Shown here: positions 8,545 through 38,103 of the stretch, piece after piece
Layout: the number at the start of each line of letters is the position of its first letter
How positions within the stretch are numbered: the first letter of the stretch is position 1
UHGV virus genome: UHGV-0235457
Origin: a virus
Reading direction: 5' to 3' (one strand)
Length of the DNA stretch: 38,103 nt
Program-made: the position numbers and the translations under genes
Notes under the pieces: generated by a model
Database searches by the model: none
Told to the model about the DNA's origin: nothing
What the model saw: only the letters and a program-made list of their open reading frames with translations

Positions 8545-8580
8545 AACCGCTAATGGTCAGATTAGCGGTTATTTTGTTTT
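8545..8580. terminator. Bidirectional rho-independent terminator between convergent U and invertase genes
   Basis: ACCGCTAAT-GGTCAG-ATTAGCGGT hairpin; T-rich run on both sides; the plus-strand T-tract overlaps the last invertase codons. Confidence 0.55.
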
Positions 8581-9156
8581 CTGACTCTTCTCTATTGTTC
8601 CGCTTGATTCTCCTGCGGGGTGGTAACGATAAATCGTCGATGTACCAATGCCGTAAATTATTGCCAGTTGTTTTCTGTCGTGACCGTTTTTAATCAGCCT
8701 TGCTATTTGCTCATGCTGTTCTTTTGTCAGCTTCGGTCGACGTCCGCCTGTGCGCCCCCGTGCGCGCGCTGCCGCCAGTCCGGCCAGTGTACGTTCAACA
8801 ATTAATTCACGTTCCATTTCAGCCAGGGCACCCATCACGTGGAAGAAGAAACGCCCCATTGGAGAAGATGTATCTATGCTGTCGGTCAGACTGCGAAAAT
8901 TAATCCCTCGTTCCCGTAGTTCCCCGACGAGAGAAATCAGATGTTTCATGCTTCGCCCGAGGCGATCCAGTTTCCAGACAACCAGCGTGTCACCTTTTTG
9001 AAGGCGCTTTAAAGCGCGTTTTAATCCCGGTCGGTCTGTCTTTGTCCCGCTTAATTTATCTTCAAATATTTGTTCACATCCTGCACAAACAAGAGCGTTT
9101 CGTTGCAGGTCTGTATTCTGGTCATTTGTTGATACCCTTACATAGCCAATCAGCAC
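8569..9156 (-). CDS. Serine-recombinase DNA invertase (Gin/Hin/Cin/Pin family)
   Basis: LIGYVRVSTNDQ N-terminus with catalytic Ser, C-terminal HTH; likely GTG start at 9156 with GGGAGA RBS (ORF track begins at 9174). Confidence 0.9.
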   Translation of the reverse strand: MLIGYVRVSTNDQNTDLQRNALVCAGCEQIFEDKLSGTKTDRPGLKRALKRLQKGDTLVVWKLDRLGRSMKHLISLVGELRERGINFRSLTDSIDTSSPMGRFFFHVMGALAEMERELIVERTLAGLAAARARGRTGGRRPKLTKEQHEQIARLIKNGHDRKQLAIIYGIGTSTIYRYHPAGESSGTIEKSQKTK

Positions 9157-9210
9157 GCTGAATCTCCCGTCCAAAAGCGTAAATCATGCCATGCAGGTCA
9201 GAAACGGCCA

Positions 9211-9236
9211 TTATCTAAAACCTCGGTTTACAGGAA
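9211..9236. other. Invertase crossover site (gix/hix-like), invertase-proximal
   Basis: TTATCTAAAACCTCGGTTTACAGGAA; inverted copy at 12275-12300; close to the Mu gix sequence as I recall it. Confidence 0.8.
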
Positions 9237-10172
9237 ACGGTAAATCAGGCTTCTGGCGCATTACAGAAAAACCAGAACGGCGCAGATATTCCAGGAAAAG
9301 ATACCTTCACAAAAAATATTGGTGCATGTCGCGCTTTTCACAGTGCTATTAGTACAGGGGCAGGGAACTGGACAACGGCACAATTGATTGAATGGCTGGA
9401 TTCTCAAGGGGCATTCAATCACCCATACTGGATGTGCAAATGTTCATGGTCATACGGCAATAATAAAATTATTACCGATACTGGCTGTGGAACTATTCAT
9501 CTTGCAGGTTGCGTTATTGAGGTTATGGGTAATAAAGGTGCCATGACCATCCGTGTAACCACCCCGAGCACTTCCAGCGGTGGCGGAACTACTAATGCAC
9601 AATTTACTTATATAAACCACGGTGGAGATTATGCGCCAGGCTGGCGGCGTGACTACAGTACCAAAAATCAGCAGCCTGCATTTGCTTTAGGGCAGACAGG
9701 AAGCACTGTTGGAAATGACAAAGCTGTTGGATGGAACTCAAATAGCGGCGTTTATAATGCGACTATTAGTGGAGCGTCAACATTGATTCTTCACTTTAAT
9801 ATGAATGCGGGGAGTTGCCCGGCGGTTCAGTTCCGTGTGAATTATAAGAACGGCGGTATTTATTATCGTTCAGCGCGAGATGGTTATGGATTTGAGGCTG
9901 ACTGGTCAGAGTTTTATACCACAACCCGCAAACCCTCTGCGGGAGATGTTGGTGCATATACCAAAGCTGAATCGGATTCTCGCTATGTACGAGATATTCG
10001 CCTGGGCACTCGTGTTGTTCAGACCATGCAAAAAGGCGTGATGTATGAGAAATCAGGTCATGTAATTACAGGGCTTGGCATTGTCGGCGAAGTTGATGGC
10101 GATGATCCGGCAGTATTCAGACCAATACAAAAATACATTAATGGCACATGGTATAACGTGGCGCAGGTGTAA
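9222..10172 (+). CDS. Alternative tail-fibre C-terminal domain cassette, silent in this orientation
   Basis: Frame open from the crossover site; ...LGLQETVNQ... continues in phase with the H constant region after inversion; C-terminus [14 protein letters not shown] parallels the current fibre end. Confidence 0.75.
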   Translation, partial: LGLQETVNQASGALQKNQNGADIPGKDTFTKNIGACRAFHSAISTGAGNWTTAQLIEWLDSQGAFNHPYWMCKCSWSYGNNKIITDTGCGTIHLAGCVIEVMGNKGAMTIRVTTPSTSSGGGTTNAQFTYINHGGDYAPGWRRDYSTKNQQPAFALGQTGSTVGNDKAVGWNSNSGVYNATISGASTLILHFNMNAGSCPAVQFRVNYKNGGIYYRSARDGYGFEADWSEFYTTTRKPSAGDVGAYTKAESDSRYVRDIRLGTRVVQTMQKGVMYEKSGHVITGLGIVGEVDGDDPAVFRPIQKYINGTWYNVAQV

Positions 10173-10175
10173 CTT

Positions 10176-10709
10176 ATGCAGCATTTAAAAAACATTAAGT
10201 CAGGTAATCCAAAAACAAAAGAGCAATATCAGCTAGCAAAGAATTTTGATGTTATCTGGTTATGGTCAGAAGATGGAAAAAATTGGTATGAGGAATTAAA
10301 AAACTTTCAGGAAGATACAATAAAACTGGCTTACACAGTTGAGGGAATAATTGTTGCTATGGACAAGGATGTATCGGCAATTAATCCAGAAGGTTTAAGT
10401 GTCGTTGAGTTGCCTGATATTACAGCAAATCGCCGGGCTGATATTTCGGGTAAATGGATGTTCAAAGATGGCGTAGTGATAAAGCGAACTTATACCGAGG
10501 AGGAACAGAGGCAGCAGGCAGAGAATGAAAAGCAAAGCCTGTTGCAACTTGTCAGGGATAAAACCCAGCTATGGGGCTCACAGCTACGGCTGGGCATCAT
10601 TTCCGACGAGAATAAACAAAAATTAACCGAGTGGATGCTCTATGCGCAGAAAGTCGAATCTACAGACACCTCCAGCCTGCCAGTAACATTTCCCGAACAA
10701 CCTGAATGA
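10176..10709 (+). CDS. Tail fibre assembly chaperone, partner of the alternative cassette
   Basis: 177 aa; N-terminus [11 protein letters not shown] and central DITANRRAD motif parallel the paralog at 10738-11265. Confidence 0.8.
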
Positions 10710-10737: not shown

Positions 10738-11265
10738 TTATTCAGGCTTTTGTGGCCATTCAGGATTTGCCGTATCCACACGGCTGACCAGAACACTGTA
10801 GCGTTCCCATGCTTCCAGTCGTGTGCGTTCCTCGTCTGTTGCCATATTCAGCCTGACAGCGCGTTCCAGCGGCTGGATGACTGATTCAGCTTCGGAAAGC
10901 AATGCGGCCTTTTGTGATTCGGCTTGTTGTTGCTGTTCGTCTGCCGTATAAATCCGTTTAACCACAGCTCCATCCTTAAACATCCACTTTCCTGAATCAT
11001 CAGCGCGGCGGTTGGCTGTAATATCTGGAACCTCAACGACGCTAAAACCTTCAGGGTTAAGCGTGGAGGCATCTTTAGTGATGGCGACAATAATATTATT
11101 TGCATCGTAAACAATCTTTATTGTGTCTGGCTGAAAGTTTTTCACTTCCTCATACCAGTTTTTTCCGTCCTCAGAGTAAAGCCAGATAACTCCGTGTTTC
11201 TTTGTTAACTCATACTGTTCCAGTGTTTTAGCGTTACCCGCTTTTATGTTCTTTAAGTGCATCAT
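10738..11265 (-). CDS. Tail fibre assembly chaperone (P2 gpG-like), expressed orientation
   Basis: 175 aa directly downstream of the fibre gene. Confidence 0.85.
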
Positions 11266-11266
11266 A

Positions 11267-13564
11267 TTAAACGCTCGCTACATTATACCAGGTGCCATTT
11301 ATATACTTTTGAACGGGTCTGTAATAAACGCCCGCTATATTATCGGCAGAGTTGGCCCCTGTATCCTGAACATTAATACCAGACAATACATGACCTGACG
11401 GGCACTGGAAATTCCATGTTTGCCAGTTGTTCACTCCATAATATTGCTGTGAACCAAGTCGAACATCTTTCACATATCTGGAATCAAAATTGCCATAGTT
11501 GCCGGGAATAACTTGCGAGCCGCAAAGCCAGTTCCCGTTATTATCCATGTACGCCTGACCATCGGTACCATTGGCTGTCCTTGAGTTATTAATCATGTAG
11601 ATGCCAAATTGCTTATTCCCCAGTCCACCAATCATAAATTTGCGATCAGCGTGGTCCTGACGAAGTAATGCCTGCGCACCATCGGTGGATACCGCATTGC
11701 GTCCCAAAATAACATTCTGGTCACGCATATGAATCCACATGCCGGTACTACTGTTAATTGCAAAACGGTTTGCAAATATATCCCCTGTAACATCAAGACC
11801 ATGCCCCATGCTTATCCGACCAGTTCTAAGGTTAATCGTAAAGGGGCGTAATGGCCCTATATCACCATTTTCTCCCTCATTCTCTCGTGTAGGGATGATA
11901 TGCAGGCATTCTTCAGAACGGCGAAAAATGGCACCAAAAGATGAATTAAATATCCTCAGTGCATTGACTGTCGATATTTTTACTTCACTGCTGAAAAGGG
12001 CTTTAACAAGAACAGACAAAGCATCCCATTTAAGATTCATCAGGTCTTTTGTTGTGGTGCTTTGTTTGCTTCTCCATTTGAAATATTCATTGCCGTTGTC
12101 GCCTGTTTCAAACCACATGTATGAATCAGTGTCACCATCGGCATCATTTTTAAATCCAATCTTCGCCCAGTCAGTATTTCGAATCCAGGCAAGGATTGAG
12201 TCATTTTCAAAAGTAAGCCCACCGGACAAGGTATCGCCATTTTTTTGCACGGCGTTACCAGCCCTGTTTACCGTTTCCTGTAAACCGAGGTATTCGATAA
12301 CGGCAGCAACGGTCGATTTCGCAAGAATATCCCGCCCGACTTTTGTCAGGGTTGCCAGGCTGGCGACATCATTCCCCGTAAAATACGGAAACTTGTCTGC
12401 AGCAGTAGCAAGCCCGGCCAGCGCCGTCAGGGTGGCATCTTTCGGTTGCTTACCCGCAAGCGCGTTAGTCATGGTGGTCGCAAAATTCGGGTCGTTTCCC
12501 AGCGCCGCCGCTAACTCGTTCAGCGTATTCAGTGCGTCAGGTGACGAATCTACAAGGGCGGCAATCGCAGCCATAACGAAAGCCGTGCTTGCGATTTGGG
12601 TATTATTCGTTCCCTGTCGCGCAGTTGGCGTTGTTGGCGTTCCGGTCAACGCAGGACTGTTTAAGGGCGCTTTCTTGTTCGTTTCATCCATTACCGCCTT
12701 GACCGCTTTCGATGTCGCGGCCAGTGTTTCAGACGTGCTGTTGGTGGCACTACTGAGCTGGACTATCCCTTTTTGTGCCGTCGTGGCGTCCTGAGCGGTA
12801 TATTTTGCGTTAGCAAGGTCATACGCGGCCTTTACTGCTTTCGGCGTTGCAGCCTGCGTTTCAGACGTGCTGTTGGTTGCACTGCTGAGCTGGACTATCC
12901 CTTTTCGTGCCGTCGTGGCGTCCTGAGCGGTATATTTTCCGTTAGCCAGGTCATACGCGGCCTTAACCGCTTTCGGCGTTGCAGCCTGCGTTTCAGACAC
13001 GCTGTTAGTGGCGCTACTGAGTTGAACAAAGCCTTTTGCGTTCAGCGAGGCGTCCGGGTGACGTCGTGACTGTTCATGCTCTTTCAGTTTGTCATCCACG
13101 TAATCCACTGTGGCCATCACCATGGTGTTATCCACGGTAAGTGCCACGGTGGCAGTGCTGGATACGGTCAGAATGGTGCGAAATGTTTGTGCACGACCGG
13201 ACCCTTCGGCAACGGCTGGCTTGTAACTTTCGGCAGTATTGCCCACCGCGATTAAATCGCCGTGCTCATCAAATACACCAATTTCCCGGATCCAGAATCC
13301 GCCCGTTTCTGGAGGAATAACCAGCTCTGCAATAATGCGGTTCTGATGTGTTGCGTCCAGGATGACGCGATTAACAGTATGTCGCCACACCTCATGCACC
13401 AGACGGGTCTGCTTACTGTCTGGCGTGGGCAATGTACCGCCACCGTCGCCCACGGCCATATGAGTCAGGCGGACAGGCTTACCATCTGGCGCGGCTGCCT
13501 GAGCTAATTTTTTGGCACCCGTATCGGTGATAACGGTTTTAAATTTACGTGTTGTGGTACTCAT
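11267..13564 (-). CDS. Tail fibre protein (P2 gpH-like); constant N-terminal ~426 codons, variable C-terminus inside the invertible segment
   Basis: 765 aa; internal fibre repeats; crossover site at codons encoding [10 protein letters not shown]. Confidence 0.9.
12275..12300. other. Invertase crossover site (gix/hix-like) inside the fibre gene
   Basis: TTCCTGTAAACCGAGGTATTCGATAA, inverted relative to 9211-9236. Confidence 0.8.
12680..13030. repeat. Three tandem ~129-bp coding repeats in the fibre shaft (phage tail fibre repeat)
   Basis: Units encode [41 protein letters not shown]; near-identical DNA copies visible. Confidence 0.8.
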
Positions 13565-26025: not shown

Positions 26026-26340
26026 TCAGTCTCCTTTGATGCCAGTGTTTACAACCTGACAAGCCTCTTTGAGCACCCAGTCAACAGCGTCTTTCCATGC
26101 TCCGGTTTCGGCTGGCGGATTCTCACGCTTTACCAGTTCATAGAAATGTACTGCTCTAACCAGTCCATCTGACGGTTTTGCCTGTAGTGCAGCCTGAGCT
26201 ATGCGGTATGCCTGGAGCATACGGGCGTCGTTGATATCCATTCCGAACGGAATTTCTGATGATTGTGACTCTGCATCTTCAAGCCTGGCAATTTCTTTAC
26301 GTAAGAAGTATTTCAACTCTTGTTTCTGTTTTCTGTTCAT
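26026..26340 (-). CDS. Hypothetical protein
   Basis: 104 aa; overlaps upstream gene stop. Confidence 0.5.
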
Positions 26341-26669
26341 GCGTTTTTTTCCTTTTTGTCTGTCACTTCTTTCCTGATAATTTCATTGCACAAATCCACG
26401 CACTCATTGCAGATGTAAACAGACGGTCCGGCAATCACCTTTGTGACTTCGTACTGGGATTTATTGCAGAAACTGCAATAAACCGTCTTCTCGCCTGAAG
26501 TCCATGTTTTGCTGGTTTCGCCAGACATCAGTTGTTTGAGGTCTTTTTCACGACGAAGAACTATCTGGCCACATTCAGCTATTTTTTGGATGTTGACATT
26601 TTCTTCTTTCGCCAGCGCTTCCATCCGCTCAATCAGTCGCTGCGCTTTTTCTCTGTCAATGTGTTGCAT
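26337..26669 (-). CDS. Protein with C-terminal ClpX-type zinc-binding domain
   Basis: [38 protein letters not shown] closely parallels the ClpX N-domain C4 motif as recalled; AAGGGGGA RBS. Confidence 0.75.
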
Positions 26670-26732: not shown

Positions 26733-27044
26733 TTATTCGGGAAATAACGCCCGGATATTTCCGGCCATCTGACTGGTTATCTGTGCGGCTGATACTGGCT
26801 GTGACGCGGGGCGTTCTGTCCTGGTTTGTGTCATTGATAACGCCTCATCATCAGCCCATGCAGCCAGTCGGTAAGCCTCTGCCGGATTCATTTTCAGTAG
26901 TGCCAGCCCGGCCAGAAAAGCCACGCGTTGACCACTTTTGCGGGCTTCTGGTGTAAGGCTGTCCAGCCAGGCGCATGCTTCGCCTTCGTTCTTGACGGCG
27001 GCGGGCTTCAGATAGAAACTTATCCGTCTGGTTGGTGTCGTCAT
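26733..27044 (-). CDS. ParR-like centromere-binding adaptor
   Basis: Internal ATG 27044 with AAGGAG; RRISFYLKP, LDSLTPEARK, FLAGLAL and C-terminal IRALFPE parallel plasmid R1 ParR as recalled. Confidence 0.6.
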   Translation of the reverse strand: MTTPTRRISFYLKPAAVKNEGEACAWLDSLTPEARKSGQRVAFLAGLALLKMNPAEAYRLAAWADDEALSMTQTRTERPASQPVSAAQITSQMAGNIRALFPE

Positions 27045-27048
27045 TGGT

Positions 27049-28008
27049 TTACTCCTTGTCCATTGCGTACAGCCCATTAACCAGAGCAAACTGTGGCACC
27101 CCGTCCGCGATGAAAGTCGCATTAACTCCGCAGGCTTCGCGGATAGCGGGTGCCACAATCTCTGCCCCGCCACCGACAACCATCACCCGCCCGTAACCCG
27201 AAAAACCCGCCAGCGCGCGGATCACGCGTTGTTTCAGTGTTTCTTCCTTTTCACGAATAACCGCCATCAGGCTGGCGTAATGCGCGTCATTGTGGATGTG
27301 CTGGCGCAGCCAGGCTTCATCATGGCGATGTTCGATAATGGTATTGGCGATGTGGTGACTGGTACGCATACCGTTAGTGGCCATCACCGACAGTACGGCA
27401 TCGGCCATCAGGGAAACGCCTACGTGTGGATCGCAAAACACCTGGCTGATACCTGCCAGTTGTCCCTGAACCTTTGCCACATCCAGCGTGGTTCCGCCTA
27501 AATCCACAATCAGCAGGGATTCAAACGGACTCATGTCAGCCAGTGCTTTAAAACCAGCCGGTATGGATTCAGGCATAACCCGTACGTTACGGATAGTGAA
27601 TGCTTTTCCGTTCTGGTACGCCACCGGGCGCATGACGTTTGCTTTTTTGCGGTTGATGTTGGCTATGTCCGGCTGTGCGTTTGTGTCGAAATACTCGCTC
27701 AGTGGCAGGGTGACAACCACATCCACCTCCTGTGGCGTGATGCCTGATTTGACCAGCGCGTGATGAATGGCAATGACATTCACATCGCTGTACTGGTATT
27801 GCGTATCGGTCGTCTGGACAAAGCGATCGCTGACCGGATCAAAACCATAGCGCACGCCATCAAGCATGTAGTTCGCGGGCTGCGTGCCACCGAACGGCGC
27901 AGACCATTCCGACTTGAAGCTGTTCGGGCTGATGGCGTTGCGGCGTTCGCCGTTCTCAGTCCATGCCAGCTTGATGTTGGTGGAGCCGTCGTCGATACAA
28001 ATTTTCAT
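27049..28008 (-). CDS. ParM/StbA-like actin-family ATPase
   Basis: IDDGSTNIKL (phosphate 1), DLGGTTLD (phosphate 2), VVGGGA (adenosine) motifs; 319 aa; N-terminus parallels R1 ParM as recalled. Confidence 0.75.
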   Translation of the reverse strand: MKICIDDGSTNIKLAWTENGERRNAISPNSFKSEWSAPFGGTQPANYMLDGVRYGFDPVSDRFVQTTDTQYQYSDVNVIAIHHALVKSGITPQEVDVVVTLPLSEYFDTNAQPDIANINRKKANVMRPVAYQNGKAFTIRNVRVMPESIPAGFKALADMSPFESLLIVDLGGTTLDVAKVQGQLAGISQVFCDPHVGVSLMADAVLSVMATNGMRTSHHIANTIIEHRHDEAWLRQHIHNDAHYASLMAVIREKEETLKQRVIRALAGFSGYGRVMVVGGGAEIVAPAIREACGVNATFIADGVPQFALVNGLYAMDKE

Positions 28009-34290: not shown

Positions 34291-34695
34291 ATGAAAAATG
34301 ATATTGGTCAGCGGTTGCGTGAGGAAAGGGAAAGATTGGGACTTAGTCAAGTTGCCATGAGCGACATTGGTGGAGTCAAAAAGCTAACTCAGCTTAGATA
34401 TGAGAAAGGAGATAGCTTTCCTGATGCTGCGTATTTGGCAGCGCTGTCTCGTTTTGGCCTTGATGTTCAGTATGTTGTGTTGGGAATTCACTCACCTGAA
34501 ACTTATAACGATGATGAGCAGGAGTTGATTACTCGCTTTCGAGCAGCTTCGTTAGATGTGAAAAACGCGGTGATTGGGGCTTTAAAAGGTGCGATCAGTG
34601 AAAAGGAAACTCAGCCATCAGGACGTGAGTTAAATATTTCTGGTGGTAATAACCGTATCGCTGGTCGTGACTATAACGAAACTAAGGGTAGGTGA
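34291..34695 (+). CDS. XRE-family HTH repressor (immunity repressor candidate)
   Basis: 134 aa; N-terminal HTH (LGLSQVAMSDIGGVKKLTQLRYEKG); divergent from early operon, upstream of integrase. Confidence 0.75.
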   Translation: MKNDIGQRLREERERLGLSQVAMSDIGGVKKLTQLRYEKGDSFPDAAYLAALSRFGLDVQYVVLGIHSPETYNDDEQELITRFRAASLDVKNAVIGALKGAISEKETQPSGRELNISGGNNRIAGRDYNETKGR

Positions 34696-34710: not shown

Positions 34711-35361
34711 ATGGCCGTCAACTCAAACGGTTCAAACAATCGCGTTGCTGGGCGTGATTTTCACGAAAAGAATATTCAGATAGAGCGATATGATGGTTCT
34801 CATACCGTCAATATCGCAATCCCTTCGAATAATGATGATGACGATCGCCCTTTGCTTAAGGCTCAGCGTAAGGAGCTAAATAGCTTGGTTGCTGCTATTG
34901 CAGAAGCTAGCAATACTGAAGCGTTTATTATTTGGCAAAAAGTACATGCGGAGATTGGTGTAGCTGGTATTGATGATATGACAGTAAATCAATATAAAAC
35001 AGCGGAGAGTTTTCTGCATGCAATGCTTGAGCGATGTAAAGATCATGATGCCTGTAAGGCTCTTGTAAGTTTATTACTGCGTAACAGTGAAGACTGTGGA
35101 CTTCGACAAAAACTTCTGCGGTATTGCCATATCAATTTCGGTACAGGACGTTTAAACGATCTTACTCGTTCTCAGTTACAGTCTGCATTGTCGTGGTTAG
35201 AGCAACAATCGGCATCAAGCCACACAGAGAGTTCGACCTTACCAGAAGTCCGACTTCGTGCTTCAGAATTAATCCGACTTTATCCAAAAGAAATAATATT
35301 CTTTATCTGCGTAGGGGTTTTGGTAGGCGGTGTCATTTCTAGGGCGTTTTTTAATTTGTAA
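34711..35361 (+). CDS. Hypothetical protein with C-terminal transmembrane anchor (lysogeny-operon cargo)
   Basis: 216 aa; GGAGGTGAC RBS; C-terminal IIFFICVGVLVGGVISRAFF; N-terminus shares a 13-aa motif with the repressor C-terminus. Confidence 0.6.
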   Translation: MAVNSNGSNNRVAGRDFHEKNIQIERYDGSHTVNIAIPSNNDDDDRPLLKAQRKELNSLVAAIAEASNTEAFIIWQKVHAEIGVAGIDDMTVNQYKTAESFLHAMLERCKDHDACKALVSLLLRNSEDCGLRQKLLRYCHINFGTGRLNDLTRSQLQSALSWLEQQSASSHTESSTLPEVRLRASELIRLYPKEIIFFICVGVLVGGVISRAFFNL

Positions 35362-35390
35362 TCTTACTTGAGCTAAATTGAGGTAATGAT

Positions 35391-35738
35391 ATGAAAGTAA
35401 AAAAGGTTCAACTATTAGTTACTTTTTTATCTATGTTTTCTTTTTCCGCCGTCGCAATGCCTTTTAAAACTATTGAACGTGAGAGTTTCAATGGGGTATG
35501 GCCATTTAATACTGATGAGGTTCAATTACAGTGTCTTGATGGTAATCCTTATGTGATGAATTTTGACGATAATAAGTTATATGCACTTACAGGTTTGGCT
35601 CGAATAAAAGGTAAAACATTTGGTGCGTTACCGTTAGATAACAATAATCCATTTTGGCTAGATAATGATGCCGCCCCAGGGTTAAAAAAGAGTCTGGGGG
35701 ATGTCACTAAGGCTGCATTTGATTTATGTGATAAGTAA
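35391..35738 (+). CDS. Hypothetical secreted protein (lysogeny-operon cargo)
   Basis: 115 aa; signal-peptide-like MKVKKVQLLVTFLSMFSFSAVA; AT-rich. Confidence 0.6.
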   Translation: MKVKKVQLLVTFLSMFSFSAVAMPFKTIERESFNGVWPFNTDEVQLQCLDGNPYVMNFDDNKLYALTGLARIKGKTFGALPLDNNNPFWLDNDAAPGLKKSLGDVTKAAFDLCDK

Positions 35739-35743
35739 CTAAA

Positions 35744-36745
35744 ATGTCGGTTCGTAAGATTCCATCAGGTAAATGGCTTTGCGAATGTTATCCCTACGGG
35801 GCATCGGGAAAACGCATTCGTAAACAGTTTGCGACAAAAAGTGAGGCGCTCTCTTATGAGCGCCGTTTAATGAATAGTAGAGTTGGAGACGAGTTTCAAG
35901 ATGGTTCTGGTCCTCGTCTTTCTGAGTTGATTGCTCGTTGGTTTGAGATGTACGGTAAAACCTTGTCCTCTGGTGCAGAGCGCAAAGTCAAACTTGAGGC
36001 GATTTGTTCCAGGCTGGGAGATCCATTTGCTTCTCAGTTTGACAAAAATATGTTTGCCACTTATCGGGAAAGAAGGCTATCAGGAGAATGGAATCCCAAG
36101 GGGAAGAAAAAACTTAGTGAAGCAACCGTTAATCGCGAGCAGTCATATCTACATGCTGTTTTTGCCGAACTGAAGCGCCTTGGGGAGTGGTCTGGTGAAA
36201 ACCCCCTGACTGGTATTCGCAAGTTTCGTGAGGAAGAAAAGGAACTGGCGTTTCTGTATGTAGATGAGATTGAACGCCTTCTGATTGCGTGTGATGAGTC
36301 ACGGAATAAAGATTTGGGGGTTGTTGTCCGTATTGGGCTTGCGACTGGTGCTCGGTGGAGTGAAGCAGAAGGATTAAAGCAATCTCAAGTACTGCCCGGT
36401 CGAATCACATTTGTTAAAACTAAAGGAAAGAAGAACCGCACTGTACCGATTTCACCTCAATTGCAGGCTATGCTTCCCAAAAAACGAGGAGCGCTATTTT
36501 CACCATGTTATGAGGCTTTTGACGCTGCAATTAAGAGAGCGAAGATCGAGCTTCCTGATGGGCAATTAACTCATGTGCTACGTCACACGTTTGCCAGTCA
36601 TTTTATGATGCGGGGCGGAAATATTCTTGTGTTGCAAAAAATACTGGGGCATAGCGATATAAAAATGACTATGCGTTATGCGCATTTTGCTCCAGGTCAT
36701 TTAGAGGCTGCTGTTGAATTGAACCCTTTTGACAATAGAGGGTAA
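35744..36745 (+). CDS. int: Tyrosine recombinase integrase, P2-like
   Basis: 333 aa; GKRIRKQF...SEA N-terminus, HVLRHTFASHF and MRYAHF motifs; adjacent to right att repeat. Confidence 0.9.
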   Translation: MSVRKIPSGKWLCECYPYGASGKRIRKQFATKSEALSYERRLMNSRVGDEFQDGSGPRLSELIARWFEMYGKTLSSGAERKVKLEAICSRLGDPFASQFDKNMFATYRERRLSGEWNPKGKKKLSEATVNREQSYLHAVFAELKRLGEWSGENPLTGIRKFREEEKELAFLYVDEIERLLIACDESRNKDLGVVVRIGLATGARWSEAEGLKQSQVLPGRITFVKTKGKKNRTVPISPQLQAMLPKKRGALFSPCYEAFDAAIKRAKIELPDGQLTHVLRHTFASHFMMRGGNILVLQKILGHSDIKMTMRYAHFAPGHLEAAVELNPFDNRG

Positions 36746-36860
36746 AAAGTGGCGATAAAAAGTGACAATAGATTCAAATGGCGTTGTATAGAGCCATTTT
36801 CAAAGTTAATAAAATCATAATGTTATGATTTATAAATGGTGGTTGATAGTTTTTAAAATC

Positions 36861-36906
36861 CCTCGGCGTTCGCGCTGTGCGGGTTCAAGTCCCGCTCCGG
36901 GTACCA
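36861..36906 (+). tRNA. Duplicated 3' fragment of tRNA-Leu at the right junction (partial, not a complete gene)
   Basis: Same 46 nt as 1-46 but preceded by phage sequence with only patchy tRNA similarity. Confidence 0.6.
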
Positions 36907-36979
36907 TGGGAAAGATAAGAATAAAATCAAAGCAATAAGCAGTGTCGTGAAACCACCTTCGGGTGGTTTTTTTGTATTT
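36861..36979. repeat. Right att direct repeat
   Basis: Identical to 1-119; similarity to the tRNA extends 9 bp further left (TTTAAAATC at 36852-36860). Confidence 0.85.
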
Positions 36980-37036
36980 TATTTTTCATTTCCGAAGATG
37001 CGTCCGAAGATGATTTTTCTCTGGACGCATCATCAT

Positions 37037-38083
37037 TCATTTTCTCTGGCCACCAACTACGGGCACTACTTTAACTTTTCGGTCATAGGCAGCTGTCTGT
37101 CGTGGGTTCTTATGCCCGGAAATTGCTTGCTTCTCTTCCAGGCTGCCTTCCAGATCAGAGATACCTTTTGCTTTCAGATCATGAAATGTGAAGTCTATTT
37201 GCAGATGAGGATATTTTTCCTGTGCTGCCGCTTTGACATCACGCCAACGAGAGTTAAAACCATCACGGGTATACTTGCCACCGGTAGTTTGATGAATCAC
37301 AAACAGGCTACTGATTCCCGTTTTTAATGGCAGAGAACGAGCCAGAGCTATCGCTTTCTGCAGACGAGGCGACCAGGCTTTGATTTGCTTAACGCCGGTT
37401 TTTCCCTGACGAATGTAGATCCCGGAATCGAACAGCTGGTCTTTCTGCAATGAAAGTACATCACTCTGTCTGGCCACGCATAAGTAGGCAATCTCCATTG
37501 CTACGCGAACAACATCAGGAGACACTTCATAAACGGCCTGATATTCTTCATCCGTAATATAGCGTTCGCGAGCTTTCTCTTTAAACTGTTTAACTCCCTG
37601 ACAAGGATTCCTCTGAACATAACCTCGTTCATAACCCCAACGGAATACCCGGGACATAAAGCTTTTTTCCCTGTTTGCCTGAGTTCGGCTTGATAAACCG
37701 CGTTGATCCATATAGCGCCGAATATGTTCAGGTTTGATTTTATCCGGGTCGATCTTCCCGAAGACAGGTAGAACTTTTCCGGAATATTTTGTGTAGTCTT
37801 TCCTGGTTTCGACTGCCAAATCCATAAAATCAGGGGAGGTCATGAATTGTTCCGTGAGCGCCTGAAAAGTATTTCTTTCTTTTTCGTCACCGACCGCTTT
37901 TTCATATGCCAGCCATACGGCTGATCGTGGCGCATCCAATGCGCACAGGCGTATCGCTTTGTTATCTTTATTCCTGAATTCGTAGGCCGCTTTGCCCTGG
38001 TAAACACGAGGCGGCATCCAGTTATCTGCTGGGTTCTTTCTCTTTCCGGCCATTAAATATTGCTCCAAAATCAGGTTCATCAT
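37037..38083 (-). CDS. Tyrosine recombinase integrase of a second integrative element
   Basis: 348 aa; HDLKAKG and AAYDR catalytic-region motifs; lies outside the right att repeat, 3' end facing the tRNA fragment. Confidence 0.8.
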   Translation of the reverse strand: MMNLILEQYLMAGKRKNPADNWMPPRVYQGKAAYEFRNKDNKAIRLCALDAPRSAVWLAYEKAVGDEKERNTFQALTEQFMTSPDFMDLAVETRKDYTKYSGKVLPVFGKIDPDKIKPEHIRRYMDQRGLSSRTQANREKSFMSRVFRWGYERGYVQRNPCQGVKQFKEKARERYITDEEYQAVYEVSPDVVRVAMEIAYLCVARQSDVLSLQKDQLFDSGIYIRQGKTGVKQIKAWSPRLQKAIALARSLPLKTGISSLFVIHQTTGGKYTRDGFNSRWRDVKAAAQEKYPHLQIDFTFHDLKAKGISDLEGSLEEKQAISGHKNPRQTAAYDRKVKVVPVVGGQRK

Positions 38084-38103
38084 CTTTTCGCGTCGTCACC
38101 TCC

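What the first reader, a model, noticed from the sequence alone, without database searches (positions are those of the whole stretch)
34711..35738. Two cargo genes between repressor and integrase: membrane-anchored protein plus secreted protein
In P2 the repressor gene is directly followed by int. Here two extra genes sit between them, co-directional and therefore expected to be expressed in the lysogen. One is a 216-aa protein with a single C-terminal transmembrane helix; the other is a 115-aa AT-rich protein with a signal peptide. Lysogen-expressed envelope proteins at this position are typical of superinfection exclusion, abortive infection or lysogenic conversion functions. I do not recognise either protein.
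Basis: inference. Interest (0 to 1): 0.65.

Follow-up and report, generated by a model that had tools for sequence, protein, structure and literature searches.

The report
Repressor's membrane partner plus YebY moron
Of the two extra genes between repressor and integrase in this P2-like E. coli prophage, only the small periplasmic YebY-type gene is swappable cargo; the other encodes a membrane-anchored Flk-like protein that always accompanies this repressor family and shares a co-evolving end peptide with it, which suggests an undescribed membrane-linked control of lysogeny.

Summary
Both ORFs are real and sit where stated, in one operon: repressor, 216-aa gene, 115-aa gene, integrase.

The 115-aa protein is a secreted YebY/DUF2511 protein with the family's two cysteines. 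It lies in a truly variable slot: relatives carry at least eight unrelated gene families there, some defence-flavoured.

The 216-aa protein is not cargo. It has one Flk_N domain and a C-terminal tail anchor ("mini-Flk"), so its bulk faces the cytoplasm. It follows this repressor family in P2-like and Mu-like prophages of Enterobacterales, Pseudomonas and Gilliamella; in a Ralstonia phage the two genes are neighbours but convergent.

The last ~17 residues of the repressor and the first ~17 of mini-Flk are the same motif, and the motif changes in step across 13 lineages (0 of 50,000 permutations reach the observed score). In 28 loci where the repressor homologue lacks the tail, there is no mini-Flk.

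Best reading: a two-protein immunity module in which a membrane-tethered partner is coupled to the repressor through matched terminal peptides. That step is inferred. No known defence family matched, and no paper describing the pairing was found.

The parts
34291..34695 (+). Prophage repressor (134 aa): XRE-type HTH, a conserved helix (ELITRFRAASLDVKNAVIGAL) and a C-terminal tail
   Evidence: Weak HTH_31/HTH_3 hits and PHROG repressor families. It occupies the P2 C position, divergent from the Arc-like and Cox-like genes annotated in phage 520873. Homologues with and without the tail are listed.
34627..34680 (+). Repressor C-terminal tail motif ELNISGGNNRIAGRDYNE (residues 113-130)
   Evidence: Local alignment to residues 2-19 of the next protein scores 62, against 28.7 +/- 4.6 for shuffles (0 of 2,000 reach it). 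Of the 10 identical residues only 4 use the same codon. The tail is conserved in relatives.
34711..35361 (+). Mini-Flk: 216-aa tail-anchored inner-membrane protein with one Flk_N domain
   Evidence: phrog_5825 at 4e-103. N-terminal part of the NCBIfam Flk model at 8.6e-16. PF27202 Flk_N in the precomputed annotation. 28% identity over 124 aa to E. coli K-12 Flk, E 2e-10.
34714..34767 (+). Mini-Flk N-terminal head motif AVNSNGSNNRVAGRDFHE (residues 2-19), matching the repressor tail
   Evidence: It is invariant or nearly so in the family (N10 R11 G14 D16 E19). AlphaFold2 pLDDT is about 43, so it is not folded in the monomer model.
34843..35226 (+). Flk_N helical domain (residues 45-172)
   Evidence: AlphaFold2 models helices 50-67, 71-82, 92-125, 129-143 and 153-172 with block pLDDT 76-90 (about 85 on average). 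This region aligns to Flk residues 26-146.
35284..35352 (+). C-terminal transmembrane tail anchor (residues 192-214 of 216)
   Evidence: Hydropathy maximum 2.42 at residues 194-210. Modelled helix 192-214. The YPKE-hydrophobic-G-x3-G pattern is conserved at the extreme C-terminus of the family.
35391..35738 (+). YebY/DUF2511-family periplasmic protein (115 aa) in the variable moron slot
   Evidence: Pfam DUF2511 at 28.4 bits against a cut-off of 21. phrog_2950 at 8.7e-40. PDB 7n0j YebY at E 0.0027. Cys48 and Cys113 are invariant. RefSeq names it YebY family / DUF2511. The model's best PDB matches are MlbQ.
35391..35456 (+). Signal peptide of the YebY-like protein (residues 1-22, AVA|M cleavage motif)
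   Evidence: Read from the sequence. The hydrophobic core is at residues 6-22. Family members are periplasmic (PMC8689200).
35744..36745 (+). P2-type tyrosine integrase, last gene of the operon
   Evidence: Int_N at 5.2e-32 and Phage_integrase at 2.5e-22.

Best explanation
The interval carries two different kinds of gene.

Gene 1 (34711-35361) encodes a "mini-Flk". It has an N-terminal ~17-residue head peptide, one helical Flk_N domain facing the cytoplasm, and a C-terminal tail anchor in the inner membrane. It is a conserved second component of the immunity region rather than cargo. It is co-transcribed with the repressor, and its head peptide is the same motif as the repressor's C-terminal tail. 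The most likely mechanism is that head and tail pair with each other, as short beta-strand-forming peptides, or possibly both engage one common partner. That would couple part of the repressor pool to the inner membrane. Mini-Flk could then set or modulate how much active repressor is available, and so affect stability of lysogeny, immunity or induction.

Gene 2 (35391-35738) is a true moron. It is an AT-rich, Sec-exported, disulfide-bonded YebY/DUF2511 protein made in the lysogen's periplasm. By analogy with YebY and MlbQ it probably binds a periplasmic ligand or protein.

Shown here: gene identities, topology features, operon layout, strict co-occurrence and adjacency of mini-Flk with tailed repressors, and co-variation of the two peptides.

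Inferred: expression in the lysogen, physical pairing, and any effect on the lysogenic switch.
For: Identity:
- Mini-Flk is identified.
- YebY is identified.

Mini-Flk accompanies the repressor:
- It lies immediately after the repressor homologue in P2-like prophages of Klebsiella, E. coli, Serratia, Rosenbergiella, Mixta, Izhakiella, Enterobacter and Hafnia. In the partly degraded Symbiopectobacterium and Arsenophonus prophages it is still next to the repressor but with gaps or fragments.
- It also lies there in Mu-like prophages with an rve transposase or Mu Gp27, in Pseudomonas japonica, Pectobacterium, Gilliamella and metagenomes.
- In the Ralstonia phage YO077_2 the two genes are convergent and the motif-coding segments are ~850 bp apart, yet the motif still matches.

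The peptides match and co-vary:
- In the window the shared-motif alignment scores 62 against 28.7 +/- 4.6 for shuffles.
- Across 13 lineages the cognate tail/head scores sum to 593, against 357 +/- 42 for permuted pairings (0 of 50,000 reach it).
- With one class-A representative plus 8 other lineages the sum is 371 against 236 +/- 28 (1 of 50,000).
- Synonymous codons differ at 6 of the 10 identical residues, which argues against recent gene conversion.

Presence and absence agree:
- All 80 IMG/VR mini-Flk loci have a tailed repressor upstream.
- All 3 tailed repressors fetched independently have a Flk_N ORF ~22 nt downstream.
- None of 28 tail-less homologues has one within 2.5 kb.

Other points:
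- The head peptide is unstructured in the monomer model (pLDDT ~43), as expected for a segment that folds on binding.
- The slot after mini-Flk varies between at least 8 families.
- For Flk itself, the tail-anchor topology was established experimentally (PMC6794478), and a two-hybrid assay indicated that it interacts with the cytoplasmic domain of the export-gate protein FlhA (PMC13344023).
Against: - No experiment or complex model supports binding.
- Lineages are related and the two genes are inherited together. The permutation statistic therefore partly reflects shared ancestry, and cognate pairs are not top-ranked in every row (L024 and L027 rank 5 of 9).
- Co-variation could equally arise if both peptides bind one host or phage factor.
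- Making a repressor-sequestering protein from the same transcript as the repressor is not obviously useful.
- The Ralstonia Flk_N protein appears to lack a C-terminal anchor.
- The YebY model has low confidence (mean pLDDT 60), and its ligand is unknown.
Confidence: 0.55

Rival explanations
1. Both proteins are independent lysogen-expressed cargo that protect the lysogen, by superinfection exclusion or abortive infection, or that convert its phenotype. Mini-Flk would act on its own at the cytoplasmic face of the inner membrane, for example on the DNA-entry or export machinery. The YebY-like protein would act in the periplasm.
For: - The position in the lysogenic operon fits.
- The neighbouring slot carries defence-type domains in relatives: BRCT+WYL-like proteins, a TIR_2 protein and an Imm63-domain protein.
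- The YebY-like gene is AT-rich and patchily distributed.
- PHROGs files one related family (phrog_6521) under morons.
Against: - Mini-Flk is invariably linked to tailed repressors across two phage families, and is absent when the tail is absent.
- Its head peptide co-varies with the repressor tail.
- It has essentially no periplasmic part.
- Neither protein gave a PADLOC hit.

For the YebY-like protein alone this model is not contradicted.
Confidence: 0.2
2. The two matching peptides do not bind each other. Both are recognised by one third factor, such as a membrane or cytoplasmic protease (FtsH, ClpXP or Lon), a chaperone, or a phage antirepressor. Mini-Flk would then act as a decoy or competitor that protects or exposes the repressor. 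Lambda CIII, a competitive inhibitor of FtsH that protects CII, works in this way (own knowledge).
For: - The same co-occurrence and co-variation data apply.
- Motif classes track host groups: the NRxAGRD[YF] class is mainly in Enterobacterales, and the F-x-G-x-V-G-Q type is in Pseudomonas-like Mu-like prophages. This is what a host-factor target would predict.
- The same prophage encodes a small protein with a ClpX-type zinc finger at 26337-26669.
Against: - No such factor has been identified.
- Very different motif variants occur within one host order: Pectobacterium and Gilliamella differ from E. coli.
- The terminal peptides do not resemble degrons known to me (own knowledge).
Confidence: 0.15
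3. Mini-Flk works like host Flk. It binds the flagellar export gate (FlhA) and alters the timing of the secretion-specificity switch, so the prophage modulates motility or flagellin display. That would be lysogenic conversion, for example against flagellotropic phages or host immunity.
For: - It has a homologous Flk_N domain and the same tail-anchored topology.
Against: - Identity to Flk is only 28%, and there is one repeat rather than two.
- The NCBIfam Flk equivalog score is 58, against a cut-off of 353.
- The family is abundant in Klebsiella prophages (P0095 is indexed in 1,158 blocks of the contig collection), and Klebsiella pneumoniae is normally non-flagellated (own knowledge).
- This model does not explain the repressor-matched head peptide, which Flk lacks.
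Confidence: 0.07

Closest known systems
[quoted passage not shown]
   Same: It has the Flk_N helical domain (28% identity over 124 aa, E 2e-10). It has a single C-terminal transmembrane tail anchor with the bulk of the protein in the cytoplasm. It is likely to be a protein-protein interaction module at the cytoplasmic face of the inner membrane.
   Different: Flk has two tandem Flk_N repeats and is 331-333 aa long. It starts with a proline-rich MQPxSGP segment and has no repressor-matched head peptide. The window protein fails the Flk equivalog cut-off (58 against 353 bits). It is encoded in a prophage immunity operon and occurs in hosts without flagella.
YebY (E. coli yobA-yebZ-yebY copper operon, PDB 7N0J) and MlbQ (lantibiotic self-resistance lipoprotein), Pfam DUF2511
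   Same: The domain is above the Pfam threshold. It has a signal peptide. Cysteines at positions 48 and 113 match the experimentally shown YebY disulfide. The model's best PDB matches are MlbQ.
   Different: It is only distantly related in sequence to chromosomal YebY (E 0.0027) and is not next to copC/copD-type genes. It forms a small prophage-borne clade: only 18 clusters matched the query at E <= 0.001. Whether it binds copper, or modulates copper import as YebY is reported to (PMC11923076), is unknown. The prophage context of some YebY homologues was already noted in PMC8689200.
Amyloid-signalling gene pairs: Bab/Agp in E. coli prophage hotspots, Bell/NLR pairs with BASS motifs, fungal HET-S/NWD2
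   Same: The same short motif sits at the C-terminus of one protein and the N-terminus of the protein encoded by the neighbouring gene, and it varies between lineages while staying matched within a pair. One partner is membrane-directed. The setting is a prophage. The Ralstonia pair carries a VQIG core like RHIM/BASS3.
   Different: There is no NLR/STAND, Bell, TPR or PIN partner. The partners are a transcriptional repressor and a tail-anchored Flk_N protein. The commonest variant is rich in charged residues (NRxAGRDYNE). There is no evidence of fibril formation or templating, and no Pfam amyloid or RHIM model matched.
Phage proteins that act on their own repressor: 186 Tum, P22 Ant, CTXphi RstC, lambda CIII as a protease competitor (own knowledge)
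   Same: It is a small phage-encoded protein genetically tied to the repressor. The first half of Flk_N also gives weak matches to PHROG families annotated as anti-repressor Ant (phrog_245 and phrog_2127) and occurs in a Rha-domain protein (P0233).
   Different: Those factors are made from lytic or SOS-controlled promoters and are soluble. This protein is co-transcribed with the repressor in the lysogenic operon, is membrane-anchored, and carries a copy of the repressor's own terminal peptide.
P2-type moron and defence hotspots (old, tin, Z/fun) (own knowledge; Rousset et al. 2022 recalled, not read here)
   Same: It is a fixed position in a conserved prophage backbone that holds alternative, often AT-rich, accessory genes. 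That describes the slot occupied here by the YebY-like gene.
   Different: The location differs: it lies between the immunity module and int. None of its occupants tested matched a named defence system, apart from weak WYL and PDC-S48 hits for the 288-aa alternative.

Membership tests
Flk (NCBIfam NF007987 equivalog, flagella biosynthesis regulator) | Whole-protein score above the curated cut-off (353 bits) | tested here: not met
   The score is 58.1 bits, and only residues 37-166 match profile positions 20-149 of 339.
Flk (NCBIfam NF007987 equivalog, flagella biosynthesis regulator) | Two tandem Flk_N-type repeats before the anchor (~330 aa) | tested here: not met
   BLASTP aligns the single domain of the window protein to both Flk 26-146 and Flk 151-202. 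The window protein has one repeat and is 216 aa long.
Flk (NCBIfam NF007987 equivalog, flagella biosynthesis regulator) | Controls FlgM secretion and the flagellar substrate switch | not testable with these tools
   This needs genetics in ring-mutant backgrounds (PMC13344023).
Flk_N domain superfamily (Pfam PF27202) / phrog_5825 | Significant match to the domain model | tested here: met
   PF27202 is precomputed for the 98%-identical cluster representative P0001 and for its relatives. phrog_5825 matches at 4e-103 over the full length. A profile search finds 138 representative clusters, including Flk-length proteins.
Tail-anchored inner-membrane proteins | A single transmembrane helix at the extreme C-terminus and no N-terminal signal sequence | tested here: met
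   The only hydrophobic segment is at 190-214 of 216. AlphaFold2 models a helix at 192-214. This is conserved in the family. Actual insertion and topology were not tested.
YebY / DUF2511 (Pfam PF10709) | Score above the Pfam gathering threshold | tested here: met
   The score is 28.4 bits against a cut-off of 21, covering residues 28-113 and profile positions 2-87 of 87.
YebY / DUF2511 (Pfam PF10709) | Export signal and the two conserved disulfide cysteines (YebY Cys48-Cys113) | tested here: met
   The signal peptide spans residues 1-22. C48 and C113 are invariant in 15 homologues. The disulfide was shown for YebY in PMC8689200.
YebY / DUF2511 (Pfam PF10709) | YebY/MlbQ fold | tested here: inconclusive
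   The model's mean pLDDT is only 60. Even so, its top two PDB matches are MlbQ 6qfp and 2mvo (probability 1.00 and 0.99, TM 0.37-0.57; E 0.01 and 0.048).
YebY / DUF2511 (Pfam PF10709) | Encoded in a yobA-yebZ-yebY copper operon | tested here: not met
   Here it lies between mini-Flk and int. This feature is not required for family membership (PMC8689200).
Known anti-phage defence systems (PADLOC-DB 2.0.0) | Match of either protein to a defence-system model | tested here: not met
   There were 0 families at E <= 1 for both proteins.
Amyloid-signalling motif pairs (BASS/FASS type) | The same short motif at the C-terminus of one product and the N-terminus of the neighbouring gene's product, matched within pairs and varying between pairs | tested here: met
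   Of 50,000 permutations, 0 reach the observed cognate score across the 13 lineages.
Amyloid-signalling motif pairs (BASS/FASS type) | Association with an NLR/STAND or other sensor and a Bell/HeLo-type executioner | tested here: not met
   The partners are an XRE-type HTH repressor and a Flk_N tail-anchored protein.
Amyloid-signalling motif pairs (BASS/FASS type) | The motif forms cross-beta fibrils and templates its partner | not testable with these tools
   This needs peptide fibrillation, ThT and foci assays as in bioRxiv 10.1101/2024.11.07.622273.
Superinfection exclusion / abortive infection morons | Protects the lysogen against other phages | not testable with these tools
   This needs plating assays.

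The most novel reading that the evidence does not exclude
The repressor tail and the mini-Flk head form a matched self-assembling (beta-zipper or amyloid-like, RHIM/BASS-style) peptide pair. Through it, a membrane-anchored sensor switches the prophage repressor between soluble-active and assembled-inactive states, or the repressor activates the membrane protein. This would wire the state of the inner membrane directly to the lysis-lysogeny decision in both P2-like and Mu-like phages. On the same reading, host Flk would be a domesticated, duplicated descendant of this phage protein.
Probability: 0.12. Interest if true: 0.85.

Novelty: new variant of a known kind. Interest (0 to 1): 0.62.

Why it matters
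About one complete E. coli genome in ten carries this exact locus, and close relatives are common in Klebsiella, Serratia and Enterobacter.

If the membrane-anchored Flk_N protein really is coupled to the repressor, a whole group of P2-like and Mu-like prophages would have a second, undescribed component in their immunity switch. How P2-type phages with uncleavable repressors sense conditions is poorly understood (own knowledge). This component could link envelope state to prophage stability or induction. The hypothesis can be tested directly with tail-swap and deletion experiments.

It would also give a phage context, and a possible phage origin, for Flk, a regulator whose mechanism is still being worked out (PMC13344023).

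Separately, the position between mini-Flk and int is a clean variable slot that could be mined for lysogen-expressed accessory and defence genes. The YebY-like occupant might link prophage carriage to periplasmic copper handling or peptide resistance.

Tried and rejected
- PADLOC scan of both proteins and the repressor found nothing for the two genes.
- Searching PDB sequences with the 216-aa protein gave only chance transmembrane matches.
- The search for related loci with the diverse alignment A2 failed for lack of a conserved stretch.
- In the deposited phage collection only phage 520873 carries these genes. There they match in three pieces, suggesting frameshifts in that record, and they are unannotated. 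Three Ralstonia phages gave distant Flk_N hits.
- Literature searches (DUF2511 + prophage; prophage + repressor + tail-anchored; Xuanwuvirus; Flk + prophage + flagella) found no description of the repressor/Flk_N pairing.
- A DNA-level duplication or gene conversion as the source of the shared motif was rejected. Nucleotide identity is 31 of 54, and 6 of the 10 identical residues use different codons. In Ralstonia the two segments are ~850 bp apart and in opposite orientation.
- Direct-repeat search of the region found only short chance repeats.
- The motif occurs in no other real ORF of the window.
- The AlphaFold2 model of the YebY-like protein was of low confidence because the alignment was shallow.
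Full report
**Observation.** The two ORFs are present exactly as described: 34711-35361 (216 aa) and 35391-35738 (115 aa), both on the + strand. They lie between a 134-aa HTH repressor (34291-34695) and a P2-type tyrosine integrase (35744-36745). The gaps between the four genes are 15, 29 and 5 nt. Both ORFs have good Shine-Dalgarno sequences. The consensus scan finds no terminator-like site on the + strand inside the block. One lysogenic transcript, as for P2 C-int (own knowledge), is therefore the natural reading, but it is an inference.

The 216-aa protein has a single hydrophobic stretch at its extreme C-terminus (residues ~190-214). The 115-aa protein has a classical signal peptide ending AVA|M, and its gene is AT-rich (GC 0.32-0.38).

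The locus belongs to a Peduoviridae (Xuanwuvirus-like) prophage that is 97.8% identical to Escherichia phage 520873 over this stretch. The same 1.6 kb is found in 521 of 5,426 complete E. coli genomes. In strain TUM9812 the prophage sits next to yecA.

**The 115-aa protein.** It is a YebY/DUF2511 protein:
- Pfam scores it at 28.4 bits against a gathering cut-off of 21.
- phrog_2950 matches at 8.7e-40.
- The crystal-structure sequence of E. coli YebY (7n0j) matches at E 0.0027.
- RefSeq calls it "YebY family" or "DUF2511 domain-containing".
- Cys48 and Cys113, the disulfide pair shown experimentally in YebY (PMC8689200), are invariant in 15 homologues.
- An AlphaFold2 model from a shallow alignment is of low confidence (mean pLDDT 60). 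Even so, its two best PDB matches are MlbQ, a structurally characterised DUF2511 protein.

The authors of the YebY structure paper had already noted YebY homologues lying between a recombinase and a CI-type repressor in Enterobacteriaceae. The prophage-borne clade is small: only 18 clusters matched the query at E <= 0.001.

**The 216-aa protein.** It is recognisable too. It matches phrog_5825 over its full length (4e-103) and the N-terminal part of the NCBIfam Flk model (8.6e-16, far below the equivalog cut-off). Its cluster carries the Pfam domain PF27202 Flk_N.

Against E. coli K-12 Flk it shows 28% identity over 124 residues (E 2e-10). The same query region also aligns to a second segment of Flk. 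Flk therefore has two tandem Flk_N repeats before its anchor, and the window protein has one.

Flk is an experimentally established tail-anchored inner-membrane protein (PMC6794478). It helps hold the flagellar export apparatus in early mode and is reported to interact with the cytoplasmic domain of FlhA in a two-hybrid assay (PMC13344023).

I call the protein "mini-Flk". It consists of a head peptide, one Flk_N domain and a tail anchor, with nearly all of it in the cytoplasm.

**Context shows that the two genes differ in kind.** In relatives from Klebsiella, a second E. coli prophage type, Serratia, Rosenbergiella, Mixta, Izhakiella, Enterobacter and Hafnia, the order is always repressor, mini-Flk, something, integrase. 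Only the "something" changes. In the partly degraded Symbiopectobacterium and Arsenophonus prophages mini-Flk still lies next to the repressor, but with gaps or fragments.

In 80 IMG/VR loci the interval between mini-Flk and int ranges from 323 to 1,241 bp. It contains at least eight unrelated families:
- YebY-like proteins.
- A 288-295-aa BRCT protein with weak WYL matches.
- An acidic 96-108-aa DUF8087 protein.
- A 292-298-aa protein whose C-terminal end looks BRCT-like by eye (not tested).
- A pair made of a zinc-ribbon protein and a coiled-coil tail-anchored protein.
- Two kinds of secreted protein.
- A 244-aa membrane protein.

Mini-Flk is part of the conserved backbone.

**The repressor link.** The repressor's C-terminus (LNISGGNNRIAGRDYNE, residues 114-130) and mini-Flk's N-terminus (VNSNGSNNRVAGRDFHE, residues 3-19) are the same motif. 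The local alignment scores 62 against 28.7 +/- 4.6 for shuffled sequences, and 0 of 2,000 shuffles reach it. At the DNA level only 31 of 54 bases agree, and 6 of the 10 identical residues use different codons. The similarity is thus maintained at the protein level and is not a recent duplication or conversion. The motif occurs in no other real ORF of the window.

A profile search of 1.84 billion representative proteins found only 138 related clusters. About half are mini-Flk-like proteins of 180-225 aa with a head motif and a C-terminal anchor. About 35 are Flk-length proteins, which start differently (MQPxSGP...) and lack the head motif.

Distant mini-Flk genes also lie directly after an HTH repressor homologue. 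These are in Mu-like prophages, identified by an rve transposase, Mu Gp27 or DUF2730, from Pseudomonas japonica, Pectobacterium, Gilliamella and metagenomes. In each lineage the motif is different but matched within the pair:
- TFNAPISGGEFAARDIVNH with EFNNQIHDGQFAGRDIVNN.
- QIFNGDISGQFAGNQIIN with QEFNGTAQGQFSSRDIIN.
- QQFNGPVGTVTTGDVVN with QQFHGAVEQVAAGDIKN.

In Ralstonia phage YO077_2 (Aresaunavirus) the two genes are convergent and the motif-coding segments are about 850 bp apart. Even so, QVINGGSNNVQIGSV matches QSITDGNGNVQIGKV.

Over 13 lineages the summed cognate score is 593 against 357 +/- 42 for permuted pairings (0 of 50,000). With a single representative of the commonest class plus the eight others it is 371 against 236 +/- 28 (1 of 50,000). 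The test does not remove shared ancestry, and two pairs (L024, L027) are not top-ranked, so the number should not be read as a probability.

Presence and absence agree with the co-variation:
- All 80 IMG/VR mini-Flk loci have a tailed repressor upstream.
- Three tailed repressors fetched independently each have a Flk_N ORF about 22 nt downstream.
- Twenty-eight loci with tail-less repressor homologues, from at least four lineages, have none within 2.5 kb.

**Mechanism.** The following are shown:
- Mini-Flk and the tailed repressor form a conserved two-gene module, found in two otherwise different temperate phage families.
- Their terminal peptides are alike and change together.

The following are inferred:
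- The peptides pair with each other, or both engage one partner.
- This ties part of the repressor pool, or its turnover, to the cytoplasmic face of the inner membrane, modulating the lysogenic switch.

I prefer direct pairing for three reasons. The motif varies widely even within one host order. It is matched even when gene order changes. The head is unstructured in the monomer model, as expected for a segment that folds on binding.

The main rival is a decoy or competitor model, in which a protease or antirepressor recognises both peptides. Lambda CIII and FtsH are the analogue (own knowledge).

A Flk-like action on flagellar export is unlikely as the primary role. The family is abundant in prophages of Klebsiella, which normally lacks flagella (own knowledge), and that model leaves the head peptide unexplained.

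An independent exclusion function for mini-Flk is not excluded, but it does not explain the strict linkage either.

For the YebY-like protein, the most that can be said is that it is a periplasmic, disulfide-stabilised binder made in lysogens. Chromosomal YebY damps YebZ-mediated copper import (PMC11923076), and MlbQ is proposed to bind a lantibiotic. Either kind of activity, or interference with an incoming phage in the periplasm, is possible.

**Comparison with known systems.** The gene-pair logic is a short motif at the C-terminus of one product and the N-terminus of its neighbour, matched within pairs. This is the signature used to discover amyloid-signalling pairs (Bell/NLR BASS motifs, bioRxiv 10.1101/2020.01.06.895854). 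It was shown experimentally for Bab/Agp in an E. coli prophage hotspot (bioRxiv 10.1101/2024.11.07.622273). The Ralstonia variant even has a VQIG core like RHIM/BASS3.

The partners here are quite different, however: a repressor and a tail-anchored Flk_N protein. The commonest variant is highly charged, and nothing shows fibril formation. I therefore treat this only as the most novel reading not excluded (probability about 0.12).

The window protein is a member of the Flk_N domain family but not an Flk equivalog. The 115-aa protein is a member of DUF2511. Neither belongs to a known defence system in PADLOC. No paper describing the repressor/Flk_N pairing was found in the searchable library.

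**Verdict.** The YebY part is an ordinary new member of a known family. The repressor-mini-Flk module with co-varying terminal peptides appears to be undescribed and is testable. Its mechanism rests on comparative sequence evidence only.

Noticed in passing
window 8569-10709: A serine invertase (Resolvase + HTH_7; 8569-9174, - strand) lies next to an alternative tail-fibre C-terminal ORF (gp37_C; 9384-10172) and a tail-fibre assembly gene (10176-10709). These face the main fibre genes at 10738-13564. It looks like a Mu G / P1 C-type invertible host-range segment.
   Followed up: partly
window 26733-28008 (- strand): There is a plasmid-type actin-like partition pair: ParM/StbA (27049-28008; 9.7e-81) and a StbB-type Plasmid_stab_B protein (26733-27179). 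It sits inside an integrating P2-like prophage, near the replication gene, which is unusual for this phage type.
   Followed up: partly
window 26337-26669 (- strand): A 110-aa protein carries a ClpX-type C4 zinc finger (6.6e-18). It could be a decoy or adaptor for ClpX-dependent proteolysis and might bear on repressor turnover. This was not examined.
   Followed up: no
window 36746-38103: A second, unrelated integrase (37037-38083, - strand; Phage_int_M + Phage_integrase) follows the P2-type int, where strain TUM9812 has yecA. The stretch matches the region beside a tRNA-Leu and a DUF4224 gene in nearly all E. coli genomes, so two integrative elements abut here. ARAGORN finds no complete tRNA in the window.
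   Followed up: partly
L030 3357-4132; also L084, L099, L104, L107: Tail-less repressor homologues in another E. coli P2-like prophage are followed by a pair made of a 117-aa zinc-ribbon-like protein and a 140-aa coiled-coil tail-anchored protein. The same pair also occurs downstream of mini-Flk in four IMG/VR loci. It may be a second membrane-anchored module at this position.
   Followed up: partly
L023 707-1003: In one metagenomic locus the gene after mini-Flk encodes a 98-aa protein with two hydrophobic segments. Its N-terminus (VTVVGDNNITASGDLNIG) resembles the head/tail motif class, so there may be a third motif-bearing partner.
   Followed up: no
L013 3951-4946 (E. coli K-12 flk) against window 34711-35361: Host Flk looks like a tandem duplication of the single Flk_N unit found in phage mini-Flk proteins, and it lacks their head peptide. 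Roughly half of the 138 representative clusters are short mini-Flk-like proteins, and every one whose locus was examined lies in a prophage or phage. Flk may therefore be a domesticated phage gene.
   Followed up: partly
L025 3990-4862; L027 3989-4399; L003 4647-5513: The slot just after mini-Flk carries a 290-aa TIR_2 protein in one Mu-like prophage, an Imm63-domain protein in another, and a BRCT protein with weak WYL/PDC-S48 matches in Klebsiella and Enterobacter P2-like prophages. This position may be an unrecognised defence hotspot.
   Followed up: partly
NC_049344.1 / CP025923.1 (Escherichia phage 520873), L002 3496-4536: In the only deposited phage genome carrying this locus, both genes are unannotated, their translated matches come in three pieces, and int is split into two CDSs. 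This suggests frameshift errors in that record.
   Followed up: no
P0233 (270 aa); PHROG hits of window 34711-35361: The first half of the Flk_N domain also occurs after a Rha domain in P0233, which has a weak GemA match. It gives weak hits to PHROG families annotated as anti-repressor Ant. This hints at a wider phage regulatory helical module.
   Followed up: no
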